Shown: in pieces, positions 181 through 5,729 of the stretch
How the letters are laid out: each line of letters starts with the position of its first letter
Numbering within the stretch: the first letter of the stretch is position 1
Virus record (IMG/VR): IMGVR_UViG_3300020029_000011
Location: 1 to 6,071 of that record
Strand: one strand, 5' to 3'
Length of the DNA: 6,071 bases
Source of the DNA: a virus
Made by a program: the position numbers and the translations under genes
The notes under the pieces: generated by a model
Databases searched by the model: none
Seen by the model: only the letters and a program-made list of their open reading frames with translations
Told to the model about the DNA's origin: nothing

Positions 181-504
181 ATGACACAAGTCCATATCGT
201 TGTCCGCCGTATTAATCCGGCTCTTAATGTCGATTTTGTCCAGGTAGGTTGTATTAAAGATGATCAGTTTTCGACATTACCTCTTGATGCTCTTGACCAT
301 ACCCCTGTTTCTGATTTTGTAGAGCATTCTAGCATCTCGGCTTCGCCCTATATCAATCATCGTCAGATTCCTAGCCTTGTAGAGGCTCTGGTTGCGTATC
401 CTGATTTTTCGATTGATTTCTTCGATAATACGCTCGTTCTCATGTTTAGCACTGACCTGACTCACAATGAAAGCACGTCGAAAGAAGAAGGGAAAGGGCA
501 CTAA
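181..504 (+). CDS. Hypothetical protein, 107 aa, with an acidic C-terminal half.
   Basis: This is an ATG-started ORF on the coding strand. Its third codon positions are strongly T-biased, as in the capsid and Rep genes. A hairpin plus T-tract follows it. I recognise no motif. Confidence 0.55.
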   Translation: MTQVHIVVRRINPALNVDFVQVGCIKDDQFSTLPLDALDHTPVSDFVEHSSISASPYINHRQIPSLVEALVAYPDFSIDFFDNTLVLMFSTDLTHNESTSKEEGKGH

Positions 505-550
505 AGTAGTGACCCGCCCGCTTGGTGGAAGAGTTCTTTAACTCGTTGAG

Positions 551-590
551 CCCCAGGAGATTTTGTCTCTCCTGTGGGTTCTTTTTATTT
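551..590 (+). terminator. Intrinsic-terminator-like hairpin followed by a T-tract.
   Basis: CCCCAGGAGA (551..560) pairs with CTCTCCTGTGGG (567..578), giving a 7-bp stem plus 3 more bp across a 1-nt bulge, with a 7-nt loop. TTCTTTTTATTT (579..590) follows immediately. The element lies 47 nt after the stop of ORF 181..504. Confidence 0.55.
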
Positions 591-623
591 ACTTGCTTAC
601 TGGTATATTCTAATTTTTAAATT

Positions 624-824
624 ATGGATCACTTTGATTTCAGACCCAGGTATTCTCCTGTTATTAATAGTGCACCTCATCGTTATTCTGTTGGCGCTTA
701 TCGAGGTAAAAAGCGAGTCGTTGTCGCTTGGTTTGTCGACGAAATTCCTGCGAATGATTATCTTGTTCGCTGTCGCCGTACTAATCCTTATGTTAAGTTT
801 GATTGTCTTAAGAGCCTCTTCTAA
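624..824 (+). CDS. Small basic hypothetical protein, 66 aa, translationally coupled to the replication initiator.
   Basis: Third positions are very T-rich, matching the core genes. The overlapping 574..891 frame instead has T at second positions. Its stop TAA (822..824) overlaps the VP4 ATG (824..826) as TAATG. The protein is rich in Arg and Lys. The function is unknown and a DNA-binding role is only a guess. Confidence 0.55.
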   Translation: MDHFDFRPRYSPVINSAPHRYSVGAYRGKKRVVVAWFVDEIPANDYLVRCRRTNPYVKFDCLKSLF

Positions 825-1894
825 TGGCTTGCTCATCTCCCATATGGATACGAAATCGTCGTTATTTCGACAAGAAGAATCCTTGTCGTAATGGCTCTGA
901 TGTCGCAAAGTCTGCCTTAGCGCTTCGACCTTGGGATGTCTCCCGCCAGTGGCTTATGGTTCCTTGTGGTAAATGCGAGGATTGTCTTCGACGTCTTCGC
1001 AATGACTGGTTCGTGCGCATCGAGCGTGAATTAGCCCGTTGCAAGGCCGAATCACAGCAGGCCATTTTTATTACTATTACCATTAATCCCTCCCACTATG
1101 AACGAGCTCTCGTTGATCCTTCGTCATTCATACGCAAATGGAATGAGCGAATTCGACATCGAATCGGTCATTCCTTTAAGCATTGTTTCTTTCAAGAATT
1201 TGGCACTCATCCGGAAATTGGCTCCGAACCACGTCTTCATTTCCATGGATTCCTCTTTGGTACAAACGTCTTGTACAATGAAATTAGGTCGGCAGTGTCT
1301 GACCTTGGATACGTTTGGCTCTCAAAAGCTACGCTTAAGCGTGCGCGATACTGTGTCAAATACGTTGTTAAACAAATTGGTTTTGACGCTGACGCCGTCA
1401 AAGACCGTTATATTACTGTAGATGGAAAACTTCAATCGTTATCTTCCCTTCTTGAGCACAAACGGTATACCCGGAAATTTGTCAGTGCTGGAGTTGGTGA
1501 CTTTCTTGGCTATATGCCTCGCCCTTCTGCTCGTACTTCGTCGTGGTCTTATTTTGACCCTAAGAAGGGGATCAATTATAATTACTCGATCCCTCGATAT
1601 TATCTTAGATATCTTAAACCGGAAGACGAAGTCATGCGTTCGATTGCTGCTGCTGACGCTTATGCACATTTTAGCAAGTCTTCTTTGGTTAAGCGTATTG
1701 TGTCTCTGTGTGTTGAGCGGTTCGGTCTCAATTCCGCCGTATCCCGTAGAGCGTCGTACGTGTGGGAACAAAAGCAAATAATGCGTTTTTCTGCGTCTTC
1801 GCGGATGATGCCCGATTTCGACCCGCCTACTTGGCTAGATTCGGATATTCTTCAGTTTTGGAGAGATCACTATAAACTTCAACTTCTTATTTAA
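824..1894 (+). CDS. VP4: Microviridae replication initiation protein (VP4 / gene A-like HUH rolling-circle endonuclease), 356 aa.
   Basis: The N-terminus MACSSPIWIRN is typical of this family. The motifs are CGKCEDC (965..985), FITITINP (motif I, about 1067..1090), the HUH motif HFHGFLF (1238..1258) and the double-Tyr motif YCVKYVVK (1349..1372), comparable to YVAKYVNK in phiX174 protein A. Confidence 0.93.
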   Translation: MACSSPIWIRNRRYFDKKNPCRNGSDVAKSALALRPWDVSRQWLMVPCGKCEDCLRRLRNDWFVRIERELARCKAESQQAIFITITINPSHYERALVDPSSFIRKWNERIRHRIGHSFKHCFFQEFGTHPEIGSEPRLHFHGFLFGTNVLYNEIRSAVSDLGYVWLSKATLKRARYCVKYVVKQIGFDADAVKDRYITVDGKLQSLSSLLEHKRYTRKFVSAGVGDFLGYMPRPSARTSSWSYFDPKKGINYNYSIPRYYLRYLKPEDEVMRSIAAADAYAHFSKSSLVKRIVSLCVERFGLNSAVSRRASYVWEQKQIMRFSASSRMMPDFDPPTWLDSDILQFWRDHYKLQLLI

Positions 1895-1897
1895 TTT

Positions 1898-3721
1898 ATG
1901 GGAAAACAACCTTTTATTTCACACTCCGTAAATGGTTACTCTCGCTATGATGTTCCTGAGAGTAAAGCTTTTACGTGTACGCCGGGTATTTTATATCCGG
2001 TGCGGATTGATTTTATTAATGCCCGCGATCGTATTTCTATCGAGCAGGGCATCGACGTTCGAAGTAACCCTCTCGCCGTCCCAACGTTCAATCCTTATAC
2101 TATTCGGCTTCACCGCTTTTGGGTGCCTCTTCAGTTGTATCATCCTGAGCTGAGAACGAATAGCAGCAAGTTCGATATGAATGACCTCACTCTGAATTGG
2201 ATTAACGCAGTTCCAGGTATACCCTCGTCTGGTGCGACGCCTTCGGTTACTGCGACTTTTTCTAATTCGCTTATGTATTGGCTGCGCGTGTCTAACCGTT
2301 CTGTTGATTTCACTACACCCGCTTCAACCTCCGGTATTGTACTCCCCTCGAATGTTGTTGGGGGCGTTTGGGCTAATGCTGATACGTATCTCGCTTATTG
2401 GGACATTGTTCGAAATTATTACGGTTATTCGCAGTGGGGACTCTACTCCTTTGCTTGGCCCGCTTCTTGGTATTACACTGTAACGGGCCATTCTACCGCT
2501 ACCAACGGTACCTACGGATTCAATTCGAATGCCTCGGATGCGTTTTTCACCCAACGCTATGGTAATCTTGAATTCCTTGATGCTTATTTTGAGAGTCAGT
2601 TTTACCCTGCAGCTGTATCATCTTCTAATAATACTTATTGTCGTTCTGCTCTTCTTCGGCAGATTATCGCTTCTGATATTGCATCTACCGGTTCTGCCGC
2701 TGGCGCCGCCGGTGACGGCTATCCGGTTGCGGCTCAACCGACCGCGCTTCAGATTTGGGGCGCCACGGCTCCTCTCGATCAATTTAGTTCGCGTGACGAT
2801 ACAAAAGGCCTTGCTGAGCCTATTATTTTCAACCTTGCTCATCCTATGGCCGTTATCCCGTCTAATCCTGACCGATTTAGTCGTCTCCTCCCTATTGGTA
2901 GTAGTTCCGCCGTTTCAATGACTGGCGTTCAAACCATTCCTCAGCTGGCTATCGCTTCTCGTCTTCAGGAATACAAAGATCTCCTCGGCGCTGGAGGTAG
3001 CCGTTATAGCGATTGGTTGGAAACGTTTTTTGCTTCGAAGATTGAGCATGTTGATCGGCCTAAACTTCTTTTTAGTGCTTCGCAGATGATCAATGTTCAG
3101 GTTGTTATGAATCAGGCTGGATTTAACAACTTTGGCGGTAATCCTTCGGCTGGTCCTCTTGGTCAACAGGGCGGCGCTATCGCTTTTAACGATCGCCTTG
3201 GTCGTCGCCAGTCTTATTATTTCCGCGAACCCGGCTATATGATTGACATGCTAAGTATCCGACCTGTTTATTACTGGTCGCAGATCAAACCCGACTATTT
3301 GAATTATCGAGGCTCTGATTATTTCAACCCAATCTATAATGATATAGGATATCAGAGCGTACCTAATTGGCGCTTCGGTAATCTTGTTGGTGGCGTCGTT
3401 GAAAGTACCTTTTCGCAGGAACCTTGCTTTAACGAGTTTCGAGCCTCTTATGATGAAGTTCTAGGTCAAATCTCTAGCACCGCCGGAGACGTTAGCGGCC
3501 GTTCTCTTTATGCTTATTGGGTGCAGCAGCGTCAGGTAAACTGGAGTTCTTATTGGCCTTCAAAGGCTGATTATGCGCCGGCCCTTTTTGTTGATCTATC
3601 GCAGGTTAATTCTCCGTTCCTTTCTGATGTGGAAGATAATTTCTTCGTGAATATGTCTTATGCTGTTCAGAAGAAGAACCTCCTTAACAAGACCTTTGCA
3701 ACTCGTTTGTCTAACCGCTAA
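1898..3721 (+). CDS. VP1: Microviridae major capsid protein (VP1 / gene F-like), 607 aa.
   Basis: It is the largest ORF in the genome. The conserved-looking blocks are TPGILYPVRIDFINARDRISI, NPYTIRLHRFWVPLQLY and IPQLAIASRLQEYKDLLGAGGSRYSDWLETFF (GGSRY at 2993..3007). They resemble the characteristic gokushovirus/alpavirus VP1 blocks. It starts 3 nt after the VP4 stop. Confidence 0.95.
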   Translation: MGKQPFISHSVNGYSRYDVPESKAFTCTPGILYPVRIDFINARDRISIEQGIDVRSNPLAVPTFNPYTIRLHRFWVPLQLYHPELRTNSSKFDMNDLTLNWINAVPGIPSSGATPSVTATFSNSLMYWLRVSNRSVDFTTPASTSGIVLPSNVVGGVWANADTYLAYWDIVRNYYGYSQWGLYSFAWPASWYYTVTGHSTATNGTYGFNSNASDAFFTQRYGNLEFLDAYFESQFYPAAVSSSNNTYCRSALLRQIIASDIASTGSAAGAAGDGYPVAAQPTALQIWGATAPLDQFSSRDDTKGLAEPIIFNLAHPMAVIPSNPDRFSRLLPIGSSSAVSMTGVQTIPQLAIASRLQEYKDLLGAGGSRYSDWLETFFASKIEHVDRPKLLFSASQMINVQVVMNQAGFNNFGGNPSAGPLGQQGGAIAFNDRLGRRQSYYFREPGYMIDMLSIRPVYYWSQIKPDYLNYRGSDYFNPIYNDIGYQSVPNWRFGNLVGGVVESTFSQEPCFNEFRASYDEVLGQISSTAGDVSGRSLYAYWVQQRQVNWSSYWPSKADYAPALFVDLSQVNSPFLSDVEDNFFVNMSYAVQKKNLLNKTFATRLSNR

Positions 3722-3732
3722 TATTATATCTT

Positions 3733-4029
3733 ATGGCACTTGATTGGATGATTGAAGATCGCGAAGAATACGTTTCTCGTGGTCAACGCATTCTTTCCGT
3801 TCTCGATGGCTCCGGCTCCGTCGACGTTCTTCCTGGCCGTCCAGATGTGGTGGCCGAGCCCTCTGATTTCGACAAGGGTGAAAAGTTTAACCCTGATATC
3901 GATTTCGATCCTAACTCTTTTTCTCGTATGGATAAGTTTGACGGCCTAGAGGTCGGTCAGGAACTTATTGACTCTCAGCTTGATAAGTCTAAGCCCACCT
4001 CGAAATCCTCTGACCCTGAAGAAAAATAG
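3733..4029 (+). CDS. Small, highly acidic hypothetical protein, 98 aa. It may be an internal scaffolding-type protein.
   Basis: This is an ATG-started ORF 11 nt after the VP1 stop on the coding strand. It is very rich in Asp and Glu, with a Ser/Lys-rich tail. The scaffold idea rests on position and charge only, with no motif-level support. Confidence 0.5.
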   Translation: MALDWMIEDREEYVSRGQRILSVLDGSGSVDVLPGRPDVVAEPSDFDKGEKFNPDIDFDPNSFSRMDKFDGLEVGQELIDSQLDKSKPTSKSSDPEEK

Positions 4030-4060
4030 TACTATCTTCACTTGACGATATATGTTACGT

Positions 4061-4131
4061 GCGCGGACCCCTTTGGCGAGAGTTCGTGAATTGCTGAAGG
4101 TTATTGGTAACGACTGCCGGAGAGGCCGCGC
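4061..4131 (+). other. Long imperfect GC-rich stem-loop followed by a T-rich tract. It could be a transcription terminator or attenuator, or an ssDNA structural element such as a complementary-strand origin.
   Basis: GCGCGG-a-CCCCTTTGGC (4061..4077) pairs with GCCGGAGAGGCCGCGC (4116..4131). That gives 6 perfect GC pairs, a 1-nt bulge, then 10 positions with one mismatch and two G:T wobbles. The inner extension AGTtCG (4081..4086) pairs with CGACT (4111..4115). ATTTTTCTATCGTTCTTTAAATTTTG lies downstream. Confidence 0.5.
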
Positions 4132-4162
4132 ATTTTTCTATCGTTCTTTAAATTTTGTTGTC

Positions 4163-4354
4163 ATGTCTGAAACTAAACTACCTTTCTACAAGTCAAAGGC
4201 TTTTTGGACGCTCGTTACCTCCATTATCGCCGCTCTATCGGCTTTTTTCCTTGCTTCGTGTTCCGCACAGGCAAAGGTTGCTCGAACGGGTATTCACATT
4301 GATACTGTTCGCGTAGACTACATTATTCGTTCGAACAATTTTTCGCTTCCGTAA
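4163..4354 (+). CDS. Predicted small lipoprotein. The precursor is 63 aa and the mature lipopeptide about 31 aa. An alternative upstream start exists at 4052.
   Basis: The sequence MSETKLPFYKSKAFWTLVTSIIAALSAFFLASC-SAQ... has a Lys-containing n-region, a hydrophobic h-region and the lipobox L-A-S-C, with Cys33 at 4259..4261. Its stop (4352..4354) lies 1 nt before the VP2 ATG. Starting at 4052 would add 37 basic residues ahead of the signal peptide and would run through the 4061..4131 stem-loop. Confidence 0.6.
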   Translation: MSETKLPFYKSKAFWTLVTSIIAALSAFFLASCSAQAKVARTGIHIDTVRVDYIIRSNNFSLP

Positions 4355-4355
4355 T

Positions 4356-5729
4356 ATGAGACTCATTGATTTTAAGTCTTACGTCGAGCCTGTTTCCACA
4401 GGTGCTATACTCGGCGCCGCAGGCATTGCCGCTGGCGGCCAGGTTGCTTCTGGGCTTTTCAAACCATCCCTTAAGAGGCAATGGAAGTACCAACAAAAAC
4501 AGATGAAGCTTCAGCAGCAGTATGCTCTTGAACAGATGCAGAAACAGGGCGAGATCAATTACGCTAATTGGCAAAAACAATTTGATTACGAAAACGCCTA
4601 TAATGATCCCTCTAAGGTTTTCGATCGCTATCTTAAGGCCGGCGTTACGCCCGCCGCTGTTCTTGGCTCTTCAGGCGTTGGCATTAACGCTACTATGTCC
4701 GGCGGCTCTGCTGGTTCTGTAGGCGCTGCTGGTCCTTCGGGTGGCTCGTTCGACTTTTCCAGCCCTCTACCCCCTGGTGTTGGTTCTGCCGCCGCTGGTA
4801 CTGCGCTTGACGCTATGGGTATCAACTCGTCTATTGAACGTAACAAAGCTGCTGCTAATCGTGATGACGCCGAGGCTGAAAATATCCGTAGTAATACCTT
4901 TGAACCTGAGTTTAATAAGGCTCGTGCTGAAGCCTCTAAGGCTGTTGATGAAGCGTTGGCTAATAAGGAAATCGAAGCTGCTGCAGCTCTTAAGTCTGAG
5001 CGCCTTCTAAACGATCTTAACAATACTCTGCTCTCTCTTACACTAGATGCTCACGTTGAAGAAGCTAAGGCGCTCGCTGATACAGCCAAAGAGGAATTAA
5101 GACAGCTTCGTATTCAGGGTACTTACGTTGATCGTATGGTTAAAGCTCGAGTTTTAGTTATTGAAACGCAGGGTGCTCTTAACAAAGCTCTTTCCGGTCT
5201 TGCTTCCGCCAATGAGGAAGGACAGCGCATTAACAATCTCGATCTTGCTAACGAACTTTCGCGTAATTGGGATAAGCGTTTTGACGTTGAAATCCCGAAT
5301 CCTCAGTACGAAAAGAATCTTCGCAGCTCTAATCCTATAAATCGTGCTAATCCTGGTCCCCGCTCTTTCAAAGTTTCTATGTCTCTTAAGGACTTTTACG
5401 ACAAGACTGAGATTAACCAATCTAAAGCCTCAGAATTTCTTCCCGAAGAAGCTCGTATTGCCCTTCGCAATGCTAGGCTCGATCCGTATCTCGAAATCGG
5501 TAGAGCTCTTATTGGCGTTGCTGGCAGTGTTGCAGGCGCTGGTATTATTCGTGGCGGAATGGCCCGCGCTGCTGGCACTATCTCCGCTGGTGGTTCTTCG
5601 AGTAGCTCTGCAGGCTCTTCTTTGACAACTCGTTATGATTCGCGTGGCAACGTTGTTGGTTATGCGAAAACAGAAATGAATCGCAGTGGCCACTCGAGTT
5701 CGTACAATAACACTCGTAGATCTCGTTAA
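4356..5729 (+). CDS. VP2: Minor capsid / DNA pilot protein (VP2 / gene H-like), 457 aa.
   Basis: It is the second-largest structural-size ORF. The N-terminal segment is hydrophobic and Gly/Ala-rich (GAILGAAGIAAGGQVASGLF), and a Gly/Ser/Ala low-complexity region follows. The centre is a long Ala/Glu/Lys-rich predicted coiled coil (about 4850..5120), and the C-terminus is Gly/Ser-rich. This architecture and position are typical of microviral VP2/H. The family is poorly conserved, so the call rests on architecture. Confidence 0.65.
   Translation: MRLIDFKSYVEPVSTGAILGAAGIAAGGQVASGLFKPSLKRQWKYQQKQMKLQQQYALEQMQKQGEINYANWQKQFDYENAYNDPSKVFDRYLKAGVTPAAVLGSSGVGINATMSGGSAGSVGAAGPSGGSFDFSSPLPPGVGSAAAGTALDAMGINSSIERNKAAANRDDAEAENIRSNTFEPEFNKARAEASKAVDEALANKEIEAAAALKSERLLNDLNNTLLSLTLDAHVEEAKALADTAKEELRQLRIQGTYVDRMVKARVLVIETQGALNKALSGLASANEEGQRINNLDLANELSRNWDKRFDVEIPNPQYEKNLRSSNPINRANPGPRSFKVSMSLKDFYDKTEINQSKASEFLPEEARIALRNARLDPYLEIGRALIGVAGSVAGAGIIRGGMARAAGTISAGGSSSSSAGSSLTTRYDSRGNVVGYAKTEMNRSGHSSSYNNTRRSR

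What the first reader, a model, noticed from the sequence alone, without database searches (positions are those of the whole stretch)
4163..4354. Microvirus-encoded mini-lipoprotein coupled to the pilot-protein gene: candidate lysis or exclusion factor
The sequence shows a textbook signal-peptidase-II signal (basic n-region, hydrophobic core, lipobox LASC). It is followed by a mature peptide of only about 31 residues (CSAQAKVARTGIHIDTVRVDYIIRSNNFSLP). The ORF has the same T-rich third-position bias as the core genes and ends 1 nt before the VP2 start, so it looks like a genuine, co-expressed phage gene. Non-phiX microviruses lack a homologue of the phiX174 E lysis gene, and how they get out of the cell is largely unresolved. 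Small lipoproteins of this mature size are known in two relevant roles. Colicin-release (BRP/Kil) proteins and o-spanins disrupt the outer membrane, and phage lipoproteins such as T5 Llp or Cor block the receptor for superinfection exclusion. Either role would be new for this virus family.
Basis: partly seen in the sequence, partly recalled or inferred. Interest (0 to 1): 0.75.

Follow-up and report, generated by a model that had tools for sequence, protein, structure and literature searches.

The report
Conserved mini-lipoprotein gene of gut microviruses
A tiny single-stranded DNA phage of gut Bacteroidales carries a real, strongly conserved gene for a 63-residue exported lipoprotein whose job is unproven; it is a testable candidate for how these phages open or modify the host cell envelope, but it is not the only candidate in the genome.

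Summary
Window 4163-4354 (+) is a genuine 63-codon gene with a basic n-region, a 20-residue hydrophobic core, lipobox L-A-S-C (Cys33) and a 31-residue mature peptide. Its stop lies 1 nt before the pilot-protein ATG.

- **Gene length:** 80 of 80 IMG/VR relatives keep exactly 63 codons. The 100-aa version is broken by stops in 33 of 80 and overlies a conserved hairpin.
- **Selection:** dN/dS is 0.07 with saturated synonymous sites. The [A/G/S]-Cys is kept in all 207 family sequences checked.
- **Surface signal:** no member has the acidic Bacteroidetes surface-export signal.
- **Mobility:** type A is 70-75% identical in microviruses whose Rep and capsid are under 30% identical to the window's. 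Close relatives carry a different mature peptide behind the same signal peptide. Gene position varies.
- **Host:** the gene occurs in Alistipes prophages.
- **Long forms:** about half of the representative clusters are 170-220 aa, with a C-terminal hydrophobic segment and a J-like basic tail.

No known family matches. Function is inferred only: release/lysis factor about 0.4, superinfection exclusion about 0.3. An overlapping two-transmembrane gene inside Rep (1422-1781) is a rival lysis candidate. An nr entry already names one homologue "lipoprotein"; no paper describing it was found.

The parts
4163..4354 (+). Mini-lipoprotein gene: 63 codons plus a TAA stop.
   Evidence: ORF list and sequence. 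80 of 80 relatives have 63 codons and an ATG start. dN/dS is 0.069. The first search returned 321 homologues and the profile search 780.
4163..4198 (+). n-region of the signal peptide (M1-K12, with K5, K10 and K12).
   Evidence: Y9, S11 and K12 are invariant and K10 nearly so among close relatives. dN/dS for this region is 0.03.
4199..4258 (+). Hydrophobic core (A13-S32, AFWTLVTSIIAALSAFFLAS). It is unusually well conserved for a signal peptide.
   Evidence: F14, W15, L17, A24 and F29 are invariant even across the type A and type B alignment. AlphaFold2 models it as a helix with pLDDT 87-89. dN/dS is 0.055.
4250..4261 (+). Lipobox L30-A31-S32-C33; predicted cleavage and lipidation at Cys33.
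   Evidence: Passes the PROSITE-type rule. [A/G/S]-C is present in 207 of 207 family sequences.
4259..4351 (+). Predicted mature lipopeptide of 31 residues (CSAQAKVARTGIHIDTVRVDYIIRSNNFSLP), called the type A domain here.
   Evidence: G43, H45, D47, T48, V49, R50, D52, Y53, I54, I55, R56, S57 and N58 are invariant in 81 sequences. No acidic residue occurs at +2..+6 in any member. The structure model is uninformative here (pLDDT 49-62).
4352..4358 (+). Junction TAA-T-ATG between the lipoprotein gene and the VP2 (pilot protein) gene 4356-5729.
   Evidence: The TAA/TAG-T-ATG junction is kept in all junction variants printed (24 of the 80 close relatives). VP2 matches phrog_8689 at 1.2e-9.
4040..4150 (+). 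Conserved structured non-coding element upstream of the gene. It contains a hairpin at 4059-4133 followed by a T-run.
   Evidence: The fold has a z-score of -2.1. In an alignment of 14 relatives, 6 pairs show compensatory changes and the sequence is nearly invariant. The reading frame is interrupted in 33 of 80 relatives.

Best explanation
The gene encodes a prolipoprotein that is exported through Sec, lipidated on Cys33 and cleaved by signal peptidase II. The product is a 31-residue lipid-anchored peptide that stays on the periplasmic side of the envelope of a Bacteroidales host, probably Alistipes or a relative. There it acts on a conserved host envelope component.

I commit to progeny release as the most likely role. 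In this reading it is a lysis or outer-membrane-disrupting effector. In size and anchoring it is analogous to colicin-release/Kil lipoproteins. In its long-form relatives it is analogous to unimolecular spanins. It may work together with the overlapping two-transmembrane protein encoded inside Rep.

What is shown: it is a real gene, selection is strong, the lipobox is invariant, the surface-export signal is absent, the gene is mobile between lineages, and it is present in prophages.

What is inferred: actual lipidation, subcellular location, the target, and the lytic role.
For: A real, constrained gene with the lipoprotein signature.

Distribution:
- It is one of the best conserved proteins of the clade: median identity to the window is 82%, against Rep 81.5%, MCP 68% and VP2 46%.
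- All six whole-genome relatives that lacked a tblastn hit turned out to carry a type B version (five shown directly upstream of VP2; L019 in the same interval, partly inside the record's VP2-like feature). The gene therefore looks obligatory in this clade.
- It is the only ORF in the genome that passes the lipoprotein rule.
- Distribution is complementary with the candidate endolysin. None of the roughly 100 lipoprotein-bearing loci held at that point has an M15 peptidase. Six M15-bearing microviruses, including Bacteroides phage phiHBP1, have no comparable lipobox ORF.
- It behaves like a transferable cassette, as reported for microvirus M15 peptidases (PMC3394797). Type A is 70-75% identical in genomes with Rep at 25-30% identity, and it occupies three different genome positions.

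Long forms: about 30 of 67 representative clusters combine the lipoprotein N-terminus, a Ser/Thr/Pro-rich linker and a C-terminal hydrophobic segment that in most of them is directly followed by poly-Arg/Lys. That is the topology of a periplasm-spanning unimolecular spanin.

From my own knowledge: the mature size of about 30 residues equals that of colicin-release proteins. The functional, stable signal peptide of those proteins would also rationalise the unusually conserved hydrophobic core.
Against: - There is no sequence or profile similarity to any lysis protein family.
- No known mechanism lets a 30-residue periplasmic lipopeptide breach peptidoglycan so that 25-30 nm virions can escape.
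- The genome has another good lysis candidate, the embedded two-transmembrane ORF 1422-1781.
- The M15/lipoprotein complementarity rests on a small sample and is confounded by phylogeny and host.
- Conserved export signal plus several unrelated mature-peptide types also fits an arms-race (exclusion) function.
- The gene sits next to the host junction, co-oriented with a host-side HTH gene, in several Alistipes prophages. That arrangement is typical of lysogenic-conversion genes.
- SignalP and LipoP could not be run, and lipidation is untested.
Confidence: 0.4

Rival explanations
1. Superinfection exclusion or receptor masking. The periplasm-facing lipopeptide binds a host envelope protein that microviruses need for adsorption or DNA delivery, as T5 Llp and phi80/N15 Cor do with FhuA. 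Alternatively it blocks the incoming pilot-protein conduit, as Ltp of phage TP-J34 blocks DNA injection. Either way it would protect infected cells and lysogens, and would protect progeny from inactivation on debris.
For: - The gene is present in integrated microvirus prophages of Alistipes. It is the first or second prophage gene next to the left junction and is co-oriented with the flanking HTH gene.
- Type A is 83-86% identical between prophages whose Rep and MCP are 21-31% identical. This is expected if unrelated phages of one host share a target.
- A conserved export signal carries several unrelated mature peptides (types B and others), as expected for a diversifying interaction surface.
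- From my own knowledge: apart from o-spanins, the characterised small phage lipoproteins I know of are exclusion proteins.
- The absence of the surface-export signal (PMC5080379) is compatible, since Llp and Cor act from the periplasmic face.
Against: - Within a type the peptide is more conserved than the capsid and far more than VP2, and dN/dS is 0.09. There is no sign of diversifying selection within the clade.
- The gene appears obligatory in apparently non-integrated 6-kb genomes.
- It accompanies extremely different VP2 and MCP proteins, so it cannot recognise the incoming phage's own proteins specifically.
- The one cultured gut Bacteroides microvirus appears to depend on phase-variable surface structures, possibly capsule, which a periplasmic peptide cannot mask.
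- There is no similarity to Llp, Cor or PADLOC models.
Confidence: 0.3
2. The active part is the transmembrane segment rather than the lipopeptide. Either the uncleaved precursor or a stable cleaved signal peptide acts in the inner membrane on a membrane enzyme of envelope synthesis. This would work like the transmembrane domain of phiX174 E on MraY, or like the stable signal peptide of colicin-release proteins. The C-terminal peptide would be a variable appendage.
For: - The hydrophobic core is the best conserved part across types. Five of the eight invariant columns in the type A and type B alignment lie in it (F14, W15, L17, A24, F29), while the mature peptide changes type.
- It is 20 residues long, enough to span the membrane, and has a small-xxx-small pattern (SIIAALSA). 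AlphaFold2 models it as a confident helix.
- dN/dS of the core (0.055) is lower than that of the mature part (0.09).
Against: - The [A/G/S]-Cys is invariant in every type. That is unexplained if processing is irrelevant.
- An Alistipes prophage copy (L026) has a quite different hydrophobic core but a conserved type A peptide.
- Within type A the mature peptide has 13 invariant positions.
- There is no similarity to E (Pfam).
Confidence: 0.12
3. An envelope- or assembly-associated accessory role unrelated to lysis or exclusion. One example would be tethering assembly or packaging to the membrane, as hinted by long forms that end in a J-like DNA-binding tail. Another would be modulation of host envelope physiology, such as vesiculation or nutrient-receptor function, in lysogens.
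For: - In about half of the representative clusters the same module is fused in one ORF to a C-terminal motif RRGGRRGKPRPKxKTIPLGGSHL.
- The window encodes that motif as a separate 24-aa J-like mini-ORF at 467-541.
- In L013 and L025 the other two forward frames are closed, so the fusion is real.
Against: - An exported lipoprotein and a cytoplasmic DNA-packaging tail are topologically hard to combine.
- The window's own protein lacks the extension.
- There is no precedent for such a role.
Confidence: 0.1
4. Chance ORF, or the 100-aa ORF 4052-4354 is the real product and is not a lipoprotein.
For: Many gene callers report the 100-aa form (80 of the 120 top hits). A lipobox-type ORF appears in 7% of shuffled genomes.
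Against: - 80 of 80 relatives keep the 63-codon frame with an ATG. The extension is closed by stops within 1-5 codons in 33 of 80.
- The extension overlies a conserved hairpin with compensatory changes.
- dN/dS is 0.069.
- More distant relatives start at the equivalent Met.
Confidence: 0.02

Closest known systems
Colicin/bacteriocin release proteins (BRP, Kil/CelA, Cal; Pfam Lysis_col)
   Same: Both are very small lipoproteins with a mature lipopeptide of about 28-33 residues. Both are made without partner enzymes. In BRPs the signal peptide itself is stable and contributes to killing (my own knowledge). That would fit the unusually conserved hydrophobic core seen here.
   Different: There is no sequence or profile similarity (no Pfam hit at E<=1). 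This signal peptide is longer (32 against about 17-19 residues). The host is Bacteroidales rather than an enterobacterium. The context is a phage genome, not a colicin operon. BRPs cause leakage and quasi-lysis through the phospholipase OMPLA, and it is unclear that this would release virions.
Spanins: o-spanin Rz1 and unimolecular spanin T1 gp11
   Same: These are phage-encoded outer-membrane lipoproteins with short mature parts. The long-form relatives have an N-terminal lipobox plus a C-terminal hydrophobic segment followed by basic residues, which is the gp11-like topology.
   Different: The window's protein has no C-terminal anchor, no proline-rich region and no extra periplasmic Cys. No i-spanin partner, holin or endolysin was recognised in the genome. 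There is no sequence similarity.
Superinfection-exclusion lipoproteins T5 Llp, Cor (phi80/N15) and Ltp (TP-J34)
   Same: These are small phage-encoded lipoproteins that act from the periplasmic or outer face on receptors or on DNA entry. Like them, this gene is present in prophages next to the junction.
   Different: There is no similarity. The mature part is half the size of Llp or Cor. It is conserved across phages with very different capsid and pilot proteins.
phiX174 lysis protein E (single-gene lysis)
   Same: Both are small membrane-targeted proteins of a microvirus, with a conserved N-terminal hydrophobic segment and a variable C-terminal part. Both would be candidates for lysis without an endolysin.
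   Different: This is a stand-alone gene, not embedded in another gene. It has a lipobox with an invariant Cys and the probable opposite topology. It gave no Pfam hit of any kind, so none to the protein E family. In this genome the E-like embedded arrangement belongs to a different ORF, 1422-1781 inside Rep.

Membership tests
Bacterial lipoproteins (signal peptidase II substrates; PROSITE PS51257-type rule) | Positively charged n-region (K/R within the first 7 residues) | tested here: met
   K5, plus K10 and K12.
Bacterial lipoproteins (signal peptidase II substrates; PROSITE PS51257-type rule) | Uncharged hydrophobic core ending in a lipobox [LVI][ASTVI][GAS]C, with the Cys at position 15-35 | tested here: met
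   LASC with Cys33 in the 63-aa form. The 100-aa form fails. Across the family [A/G/S]-C is present in 207 of 207 sequences. Positions -3 and -2 are looser, for example LESC and TTSC.
Bacterial lipoproteins (signal peptidase II substrates; PROSITE PS51257-type rule) | Actual diacylglyceryl modification and globomycin-sensitive cleavage; a SignalP/LipoP call | not testable with these tools
   No predictor or experiment was available.
Bacteroidetes surface-exposed lipoproteins | Acidic lipoprotein export signal just after Cys+1 (C-x-K-(D/E)2, or SDDDD) (PMC5080379) | tested here: not met
   0 of 207 sequences have D or E at +2..+6. The rule was read. The protein is therefore predicted to face the periplasm.
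Colicin/bacteriocin release proteins (Pfam Lysis_col) | Profile match to the family | tested here: not met
   No Pfam or NCBIfam hit at E<=1 other than weak signal-peptide-only matches.
Colicin/bacteriocin release proteins (Pfam Lysis_col) | Mature lipopeptide of about 28-33 residues | tested here: met
   31 residues here; 194 of 207 family members have 31.
Colicin/bacteriocin release proteins (Pfam Lysis_col) | OMPLA-dependent quasi-lysis and protein release | not testable with these tools
   This requires an experiment.
Two-component spanin (Rz/Rz1) | Adjacent or embedding i-spanin gene (type II membrane protein with a periplasmic coiled coil), plus holin and endolysin in the genome | tested here: not met
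   No annotated or profile-detected partner gene (i-spanin, holin or endolysin) in the window. No M15 peptidase in any lipoprotein-bearing locus.
Two-component spanin (Rz/Rz1) | Proline-rich mature o-spanin with a periplasmic Cys for intermolecular disulfides | tested here: not met
   The mature peptide has one Pro, at the C-terminal residue, and no Cys other than +1.
Unimolecular spanin (T1 gp11 type) | N-terminal lipobox plus a C-terminal transmembrane anchor in one protein | tested here: not met
   The window protein ends after the 31-residue peptide. The long-form relatives (170-223 aa) do have a C-terminal hydrophobic segment (median Kyte-Doolittle hydropathy 1.85 over 15 residues), in most cases followed by poly-Arg/Lys. 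For those relatives the result is inconclusive, since the segment is only 11-18 residues long.
Superinfection-exclusion lipoproteins (Llp, Cor) and known defence proteins | Profile match to the families | tested here: not met
   No Pfam or PHROG match. The only PADLOC hit is PDC-M02A at E=0.005 over 37 residues, which I judge noise.
Superinfection-exclusion lipoproteins (Llp, Cor) and known defence proteins | Blocks adsorption or DNA entry of the same or related phages | not testable with these tools
   This requires an experiment.
phiX174 E-type lysis protein | Profile match; gene embedded in another gene; N-terminal transmembrane domain that inhibits MraY | tested here: not met
   No Pfam hit. 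The gene stands alone between p98 and VP2. The target cannot be tested.

The most novel reading that the evidence does not exclude
The family is a new class of envelope-attacking effector used by Bacteroidales microviruses to get out of the cell. It would be a lipid-anchored periplasmic peptide of about 30 residues, with periplasm-spanning long forms resembling unimolecular spanins. It would disable a conserved envelope machine or the outer membrane, either alone or together with the overlapping two-transmembrane protein inside Rep. That would be a lysis solution unrelated to phiX174 E and to endolysins. It would also be exchanged horizontally between distantly related microvirus lineages that share a host.
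Probability: 0.3. Interest if true: 0.85.

Novelty: new variant of a known kind. Interest (0 to 1): 0.6.

Why it matters
How microviruses other than the phiX174 group leave their hosts is largely unknown. An early survey noted that phiX174 was the only one with an elucidated lysis mechanism, and that some others carry an acquired M15 peptidase (PMC3394797). These phages are abundant in animal guts.

This work turns a lone ORF into a defined family:
- 67 representative clusters at 50% identity among 1.84 billion proteins.
- An invariant lipobox.
- At least two well-sampled mature-peptide types, plus further variants seen only as single cluster representatives.
- Long fused forms.
- Evidence of transfer between lineages.
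- A named host genus (Alistipes) and a sequenced lysogen (A. montrealensis kh20).

Lysis and exclusion both become directly testable. It also shows that the gene must be tested together with a second, previously unannotated overlapping membrane-protein gene. If the peptide kills or permeabilises Bacteroidales, its target would be of interest as an antibacterial target in a phylum with few genetic tools.

Tried and rejected
- **100-aa ORF (4052-4354).** Rejected. The frame is broken in 33 of 80 relatives, and the region is a conserved hairpin with compensatory pairs.
- **Family searches.** Pfam, PHROG, NCBIfam and PADLOC were searched, and PDB was searched by sequence. Only sub-threshold matches to other signal peptides turned up.
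- **AlphaFold2 with a 46-sequence alignment.** Only the transmembrane helix is confident. The mature peptide has pLDDT 49-62, so no fold search was run.
- **Long hydrophobic off-frame ORFs** (574-891, 2529-2921, 2232-2483 and others) as lysis candidates. Rejected. They are by-products of T-rich third positions and are interrupted in most relatives. Only 1422-1781 survives the test (and 1932-2153, inside MCP, was open in 66 of 77 relatives and was not followed up).
- **Bacteroides-type or sigma-70 promoter in front of the gene.** Nothing convincing was found.
- **HTH_3 gene beside the prophage copies as a phage repressor.** The free circular relative Dulem virus 219 has no such gene. It is therefore probably host-side, but this is unresolved.
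- **Literature.** No paper links Microviridae with a lipobox or lipoprotein gene.
Full report
**What the window is.** The 6,071-nt window is a microvirus genome with all genes on the + strand.
- Rep is at 824-1894 (phrog_942, 2e-18).
- The major capsid protein is at 1898-3721 (phrog_514, 1.8e-24; Pfam Phage_F).
- An acidic 98-aa ORF is at 3733-4029.
- The ORF in question is at 4163-4354.
- The DNA pilot protein VP2 is at 4356-5729 (phrog_8689, 1.2e-9).

The nearest GenBank records are uncultured Microviridae from pig, civet and musk-deer faeces, at about 74-79% nucleotide identity over 57-74% of the genome.

**Checking the observation.**
- The 63-aa form satisfies a PROSITE PS51257-type lipoprotein rule with Cys at position 33. 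The 100-aa form does not.
- Only 7% of dinucleotide shuffles of the window contain any such ORF.
- Third-position T content (0.42) matches the core genes.
- In my scan for lipobox-type ORFs the only other hit in the window is a 44-residue off-frame ORF inside the capsid gene, which I regard as spurious.

**Which start is used.** I retrieved 80 related genomes from IMG/VR.
- All 80 have exactly 63 codons from an ATG.
- The upstream extension that would give 100 aa is closed by an in-frame stop within 1-5 codons in 33 of them.
- The extension overlies a nearly invariant non-coding element. It contains a hairpin (4059-4133, then a T-run) in which 6 base pairs show compensatory changes among 14 relatives.
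- More distant relatives start at the equivalent Met.

The 63-aa protein is therefore the product.

**Is it a real gene?** Yes.
- Across 81 distinct sequences, synonymous sites are saturated (pS 0.63) while dN/dS is 0.069. By region it is 0.03 for the n-region, 0.055 for the hydrophobic core plus lipobox, and 0.09 for the mature peptide.
- Cys33 and Ser32 are invariant, as are 13 positions of the mature peptide.
- Its median identity to the window (82%) equals that of Rep (81.5%) and exceeds MCP (68%) and VP2 (46%).
- A search of 5.8 billion proteins found 321 homologues with the single sequence and 780 with a profile.
- One nr entry is already named "MAG TPA: lipoprotein [Microviridae sp.]" (P0052).

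**Shape of the family.** tblastn found the gene in 40 GenBank phage records: pig, civet, dog, rodent, lemur and tortoise faecal microviruses and 'Poophage'.

Whole-genome relatives that lacked a hit were not exceptions. All six that I checked carry a 60-65-aa ORF (five directly upstream of VP2; L019 in the same interval, partly inside the record's VP2-like feature). It has almost the same signal peptide (SKKFWTLVASIVAALAAYFATSC) but a different mature peptide (TTRHYVVQSASSIKSGDTTRTTITYEQVGNFKRP). I call this type B.

In the joint alignment the invariant columns are F14, W15, L17, A24, F29, C33, D47 and T48. Five of the eight lie in the signal peptide.

A profile search of 1.84 billion cluster representatives found 67 clusters.
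- They include further mature-peptide types behind the same signal peptide (P0237, P0238, P0242, P0247 and others).
- [A/G/S]-Cys is kept in 59 of 67. The other 8 gave no match to my pattern and were not inspected; several are very short or matched only part of the profile.
- Among 207 family sequences, all have [A/G/S]-C, and none has an acidic residue at +2..+6.

Surface-exposed lipoproteins of Bacteroidetes need such acidic residues (C-x-K-(D/E)2, or SDDDD; PMC5080379). The peptide is therefore predicted to stay on the periplasmic side.

**Mobility and host.** Gene position is not fixed.
- It lies upstream of VP2 in the window's clade.
- It lies between VP2 and Rep in Dulem virus 219, bajarodmic viruses 856, 1136 and 393, and Dipodfec virus 542.
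- It lies directly after the capsid gene in Peromfec virus RodF5_8.

Type A is 70-75% identical to the window's protein in genomes whose Rep and MCP are only 24-30% identical. Meanwhile genomes with 65-76% identical Rep and MCP carry type B. The gene's history is decoupled from the core genes, which points to transfer between lineages that share hosts.

Homologues lie in integrated microvirus prophages flanked by Bacteroidales-type genes (RelA/SpoT, HIT, GH97, GH2). A scan of one genome per species found two loci, in Alistipes montrealensis kh20 and an Alistipes MAG.

In four such loci the lipoprotein gene is the first or second prophage gene next to a co-oriented HTH_3 gene. For three prophages it is 83-86% identical, while their Rep and MCP are 21-31% identical. 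The Alistipes MAG copy has a different hydrophobic core but a type A peptide.

**Long forms.** Thirty of the 67 representative clusters are 159-223 aa. They consist of:
- the same signal peptide, lipobox and type-A-like domain;
- a linker of about 110 residues rich in Ser, Thr and Pro;
- a hydrophobic segment of 11-18 residues with a central Pro (median Kyte-Doolittle hydropathy 1.85 over 15 residues);
- a conserved basic end, RRGGRRGKPRPKxKTIPLGGSHL.

In L013 and L025 the other two forward frames are full of stops, so this is one protein.

The basic end matches a separate 24-aa mini-ORF in the window, 467-541: MKARRKKKGKGTKVVTRPLGGRVL. It is conserved in 80 of 99 related genomes. From memory, it resembles phiX174 J and gokushovirus ORF8 DNA-binding proteins.

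An N-terminal lipid anchor plus a C-terminal hydrophobic segment followed by a poly-basic tail is the topology of a unimolecular spanin. The alternative is internal initiation of the J-like part. This remains unexplained (note 4).

**A rival lysis candidate.** Testing all long off-frame ORFs for conservation showed that most are by-products of T-rich third positions and are interrupted in relatives. ORF 1422-1781, in the +1 frame inside Rep, is different.
- It is open in 61 of 61 relatives with a Rep of the same length. The ATG and the stop sit at the same positions in all of them.
- Synonymous-codon shuffles of Rep give a probability of 0.034 per genome that the frame stays open.
- Stops in the +1 frame are nearly absent (2 occurrences across Rep codons 200-300 in 76 genomes), against roughly 35-78 per 20-codon bin in most other stretches of Rep.
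- Rep's synonymous divergence falls from 0.40-0.50 to 0.13-0.22 exactly there.

It encodes a 119-aa protein with two hydrophobic segments and a basic tail. It is kept in the 13 fetched GenBank relatives (L001-L019) whose Rep is at least about 45% identical to the window's, whether they carry type A or type B. It has no family match. This is the phiX174-like embedded arrangement expected of a lysis gene, and it weakens any argument by elimination for the lipoprotein.

**Function.** Nothing here demonstrates function. Points favouring a release or lysis role:
- The gene appears obligatory in the clade.
- It is the only ORF passing the lipoprotein rule.
- It behaves like a transferable cassette.
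- Its distribution is complementary to the M15 peptidase that other gut microviruses carry. None of the roughly 100 lipoprotein-bearing loci held at that point has one. Six M15-bearing microviruses, including the cultured Bacteroides phage phiHBP1, have no comparable ORF.
- The mature size equals that of colicin-release proteins.
- The long forms have a spanin-like topology.

Points favouring exclusion:
- The position at the prophage edge.
- Sharing of type A among unrelated phages of one host genus.
- A constant export signal carrying alternative peptides.

The exceptional conservation of the hydrophobic core suggests a third reading, in which the membrane segment itself is active. The invariant Cys and the L026 variant argue against that.

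My estimates are: release/lysis 0.4, exclusion 0.3, transmembrane-segment effector 0.12, other 0.1, and artefact under 0.02.

**Comparison and novelty.** The protein fails every membership test for BRP/Kil, Rz1, gp11, Llp/Cor and E, apart from generic lipoprotein features (see the membership table). It is best filed as a new family of phage mini-lipoproteins. That is a new variant of a known kind, in a virus family where I found no published description, although one database record already carries the bare label "lipoprotein".

**Limits.**
- No SignalP or LipoP run and no experiments.
- The M15 comparison uses few genomes and is confounded by phylogeny.
- The IMG/VR relatives were retrieved through the lipoprotein itself, so universality rests on the six whole-genome relatives checked independently.
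- The AlphaFold2 model is uninformative for the mature peptide.

Noticed in passing
window 1422-1781 (+), inside Rep 824-1894, +1 frame: A conserved overlapping gene of 119 aa, with two hydrophobic segments and a basic C-tail (...PPYPVERRTCGNKSK). It is open, with the same ATG and the same stop position, in 61 of 61 relatives. Synonymous shuffles give P(open) = 0.034 per genome. Rep's synonymous divergence drops from 0.40-0.50 to 0.13-0.22 over exactly these codons. It is kept in the 13 fetched GenBank relatives with a related Rep and has no family match. It is a candidate phiX174-E-like or holin-like protein.
   Followed up: partly
window 467-541 (+): A 24-aa mini-ORF, MKARRKKKGKGTKVVTRPLGGRVL, overlapping the 3' end of ORF 181-504. 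It is conserved in 80 of 99 related genomes. It resembles the phiX174 J / gokushovirus ORF8 DNA-binding proteins (from memory). It was not listed among the ORFs because it is shorter than 30 aa.
   Followed up: partly
P0194-P0234; L013 4097-4672; L025 7959-8609: In a sister lineage the lipoprotein module, a Ser/Thr/Pro-rich linker of about 110 aa, a short hydrophobic segment and the J-like basic motif form one 170-223-aa ORF. The other two forward frames are closed. A second Cys follows the type A domain at about the point where the window's protein stops. Topology and meaning are unexplained.
   Followed up: partly
window 4040-4150 (+): A nearly invariant non-coding element between the 98-aa ORF and the lipoprotein gene. 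It has a hairpin at 4059-4133 with compensatory pairs, followed by a T-run. It is preceded by ACTTGACGATATATG (4040-4054), which from memory resembles the phiX174 origin nick region CAACTTGATATTAATAAC. It may be an origin, a terminator/attenuator or a complementary-strand signal.
   Followed up: partly
L020 4587-5051, L022 907-1362, L025 7125-7589, L026 6299-6853: Different Alistipes microvirus prophages (Rep and MCP 21-31% identical) sit at the same chromosomal place, just downstream of a HIT-family gene and a 151-154-aa HTH_3 gene that is 51-72% identical between loci. Whether the HTH gene is a host gene beside a shared integration site or a phage repressor is unresolved. The free circular relative Dulem virus 219 lacks it.
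   Followed up: partly
L006 (MG945683.1) 3405-5030; L008 2287-2442; L010 313-483: In several GenBank microvirus records the lipoprotein ORF is unannotated or merged into the feature labelled 'similar to VP2'. The family is therefore under-annotated in public records.
   Followed up: no
window 574-891, 2529-2921, 2232-2483 (+): Long, very hydrophobic off-frame ORFs that could be mistaken for membrane proteins. They are interrupted in most relatives, and they are expected from T-rich third codon positions of the overlapping genes, which supply T at the second position of the +1 frame. ORF 1932-2153 inside MCP behaved differently (open in 66 of 77 relatives) and was not followed up.
   Followed up: yes
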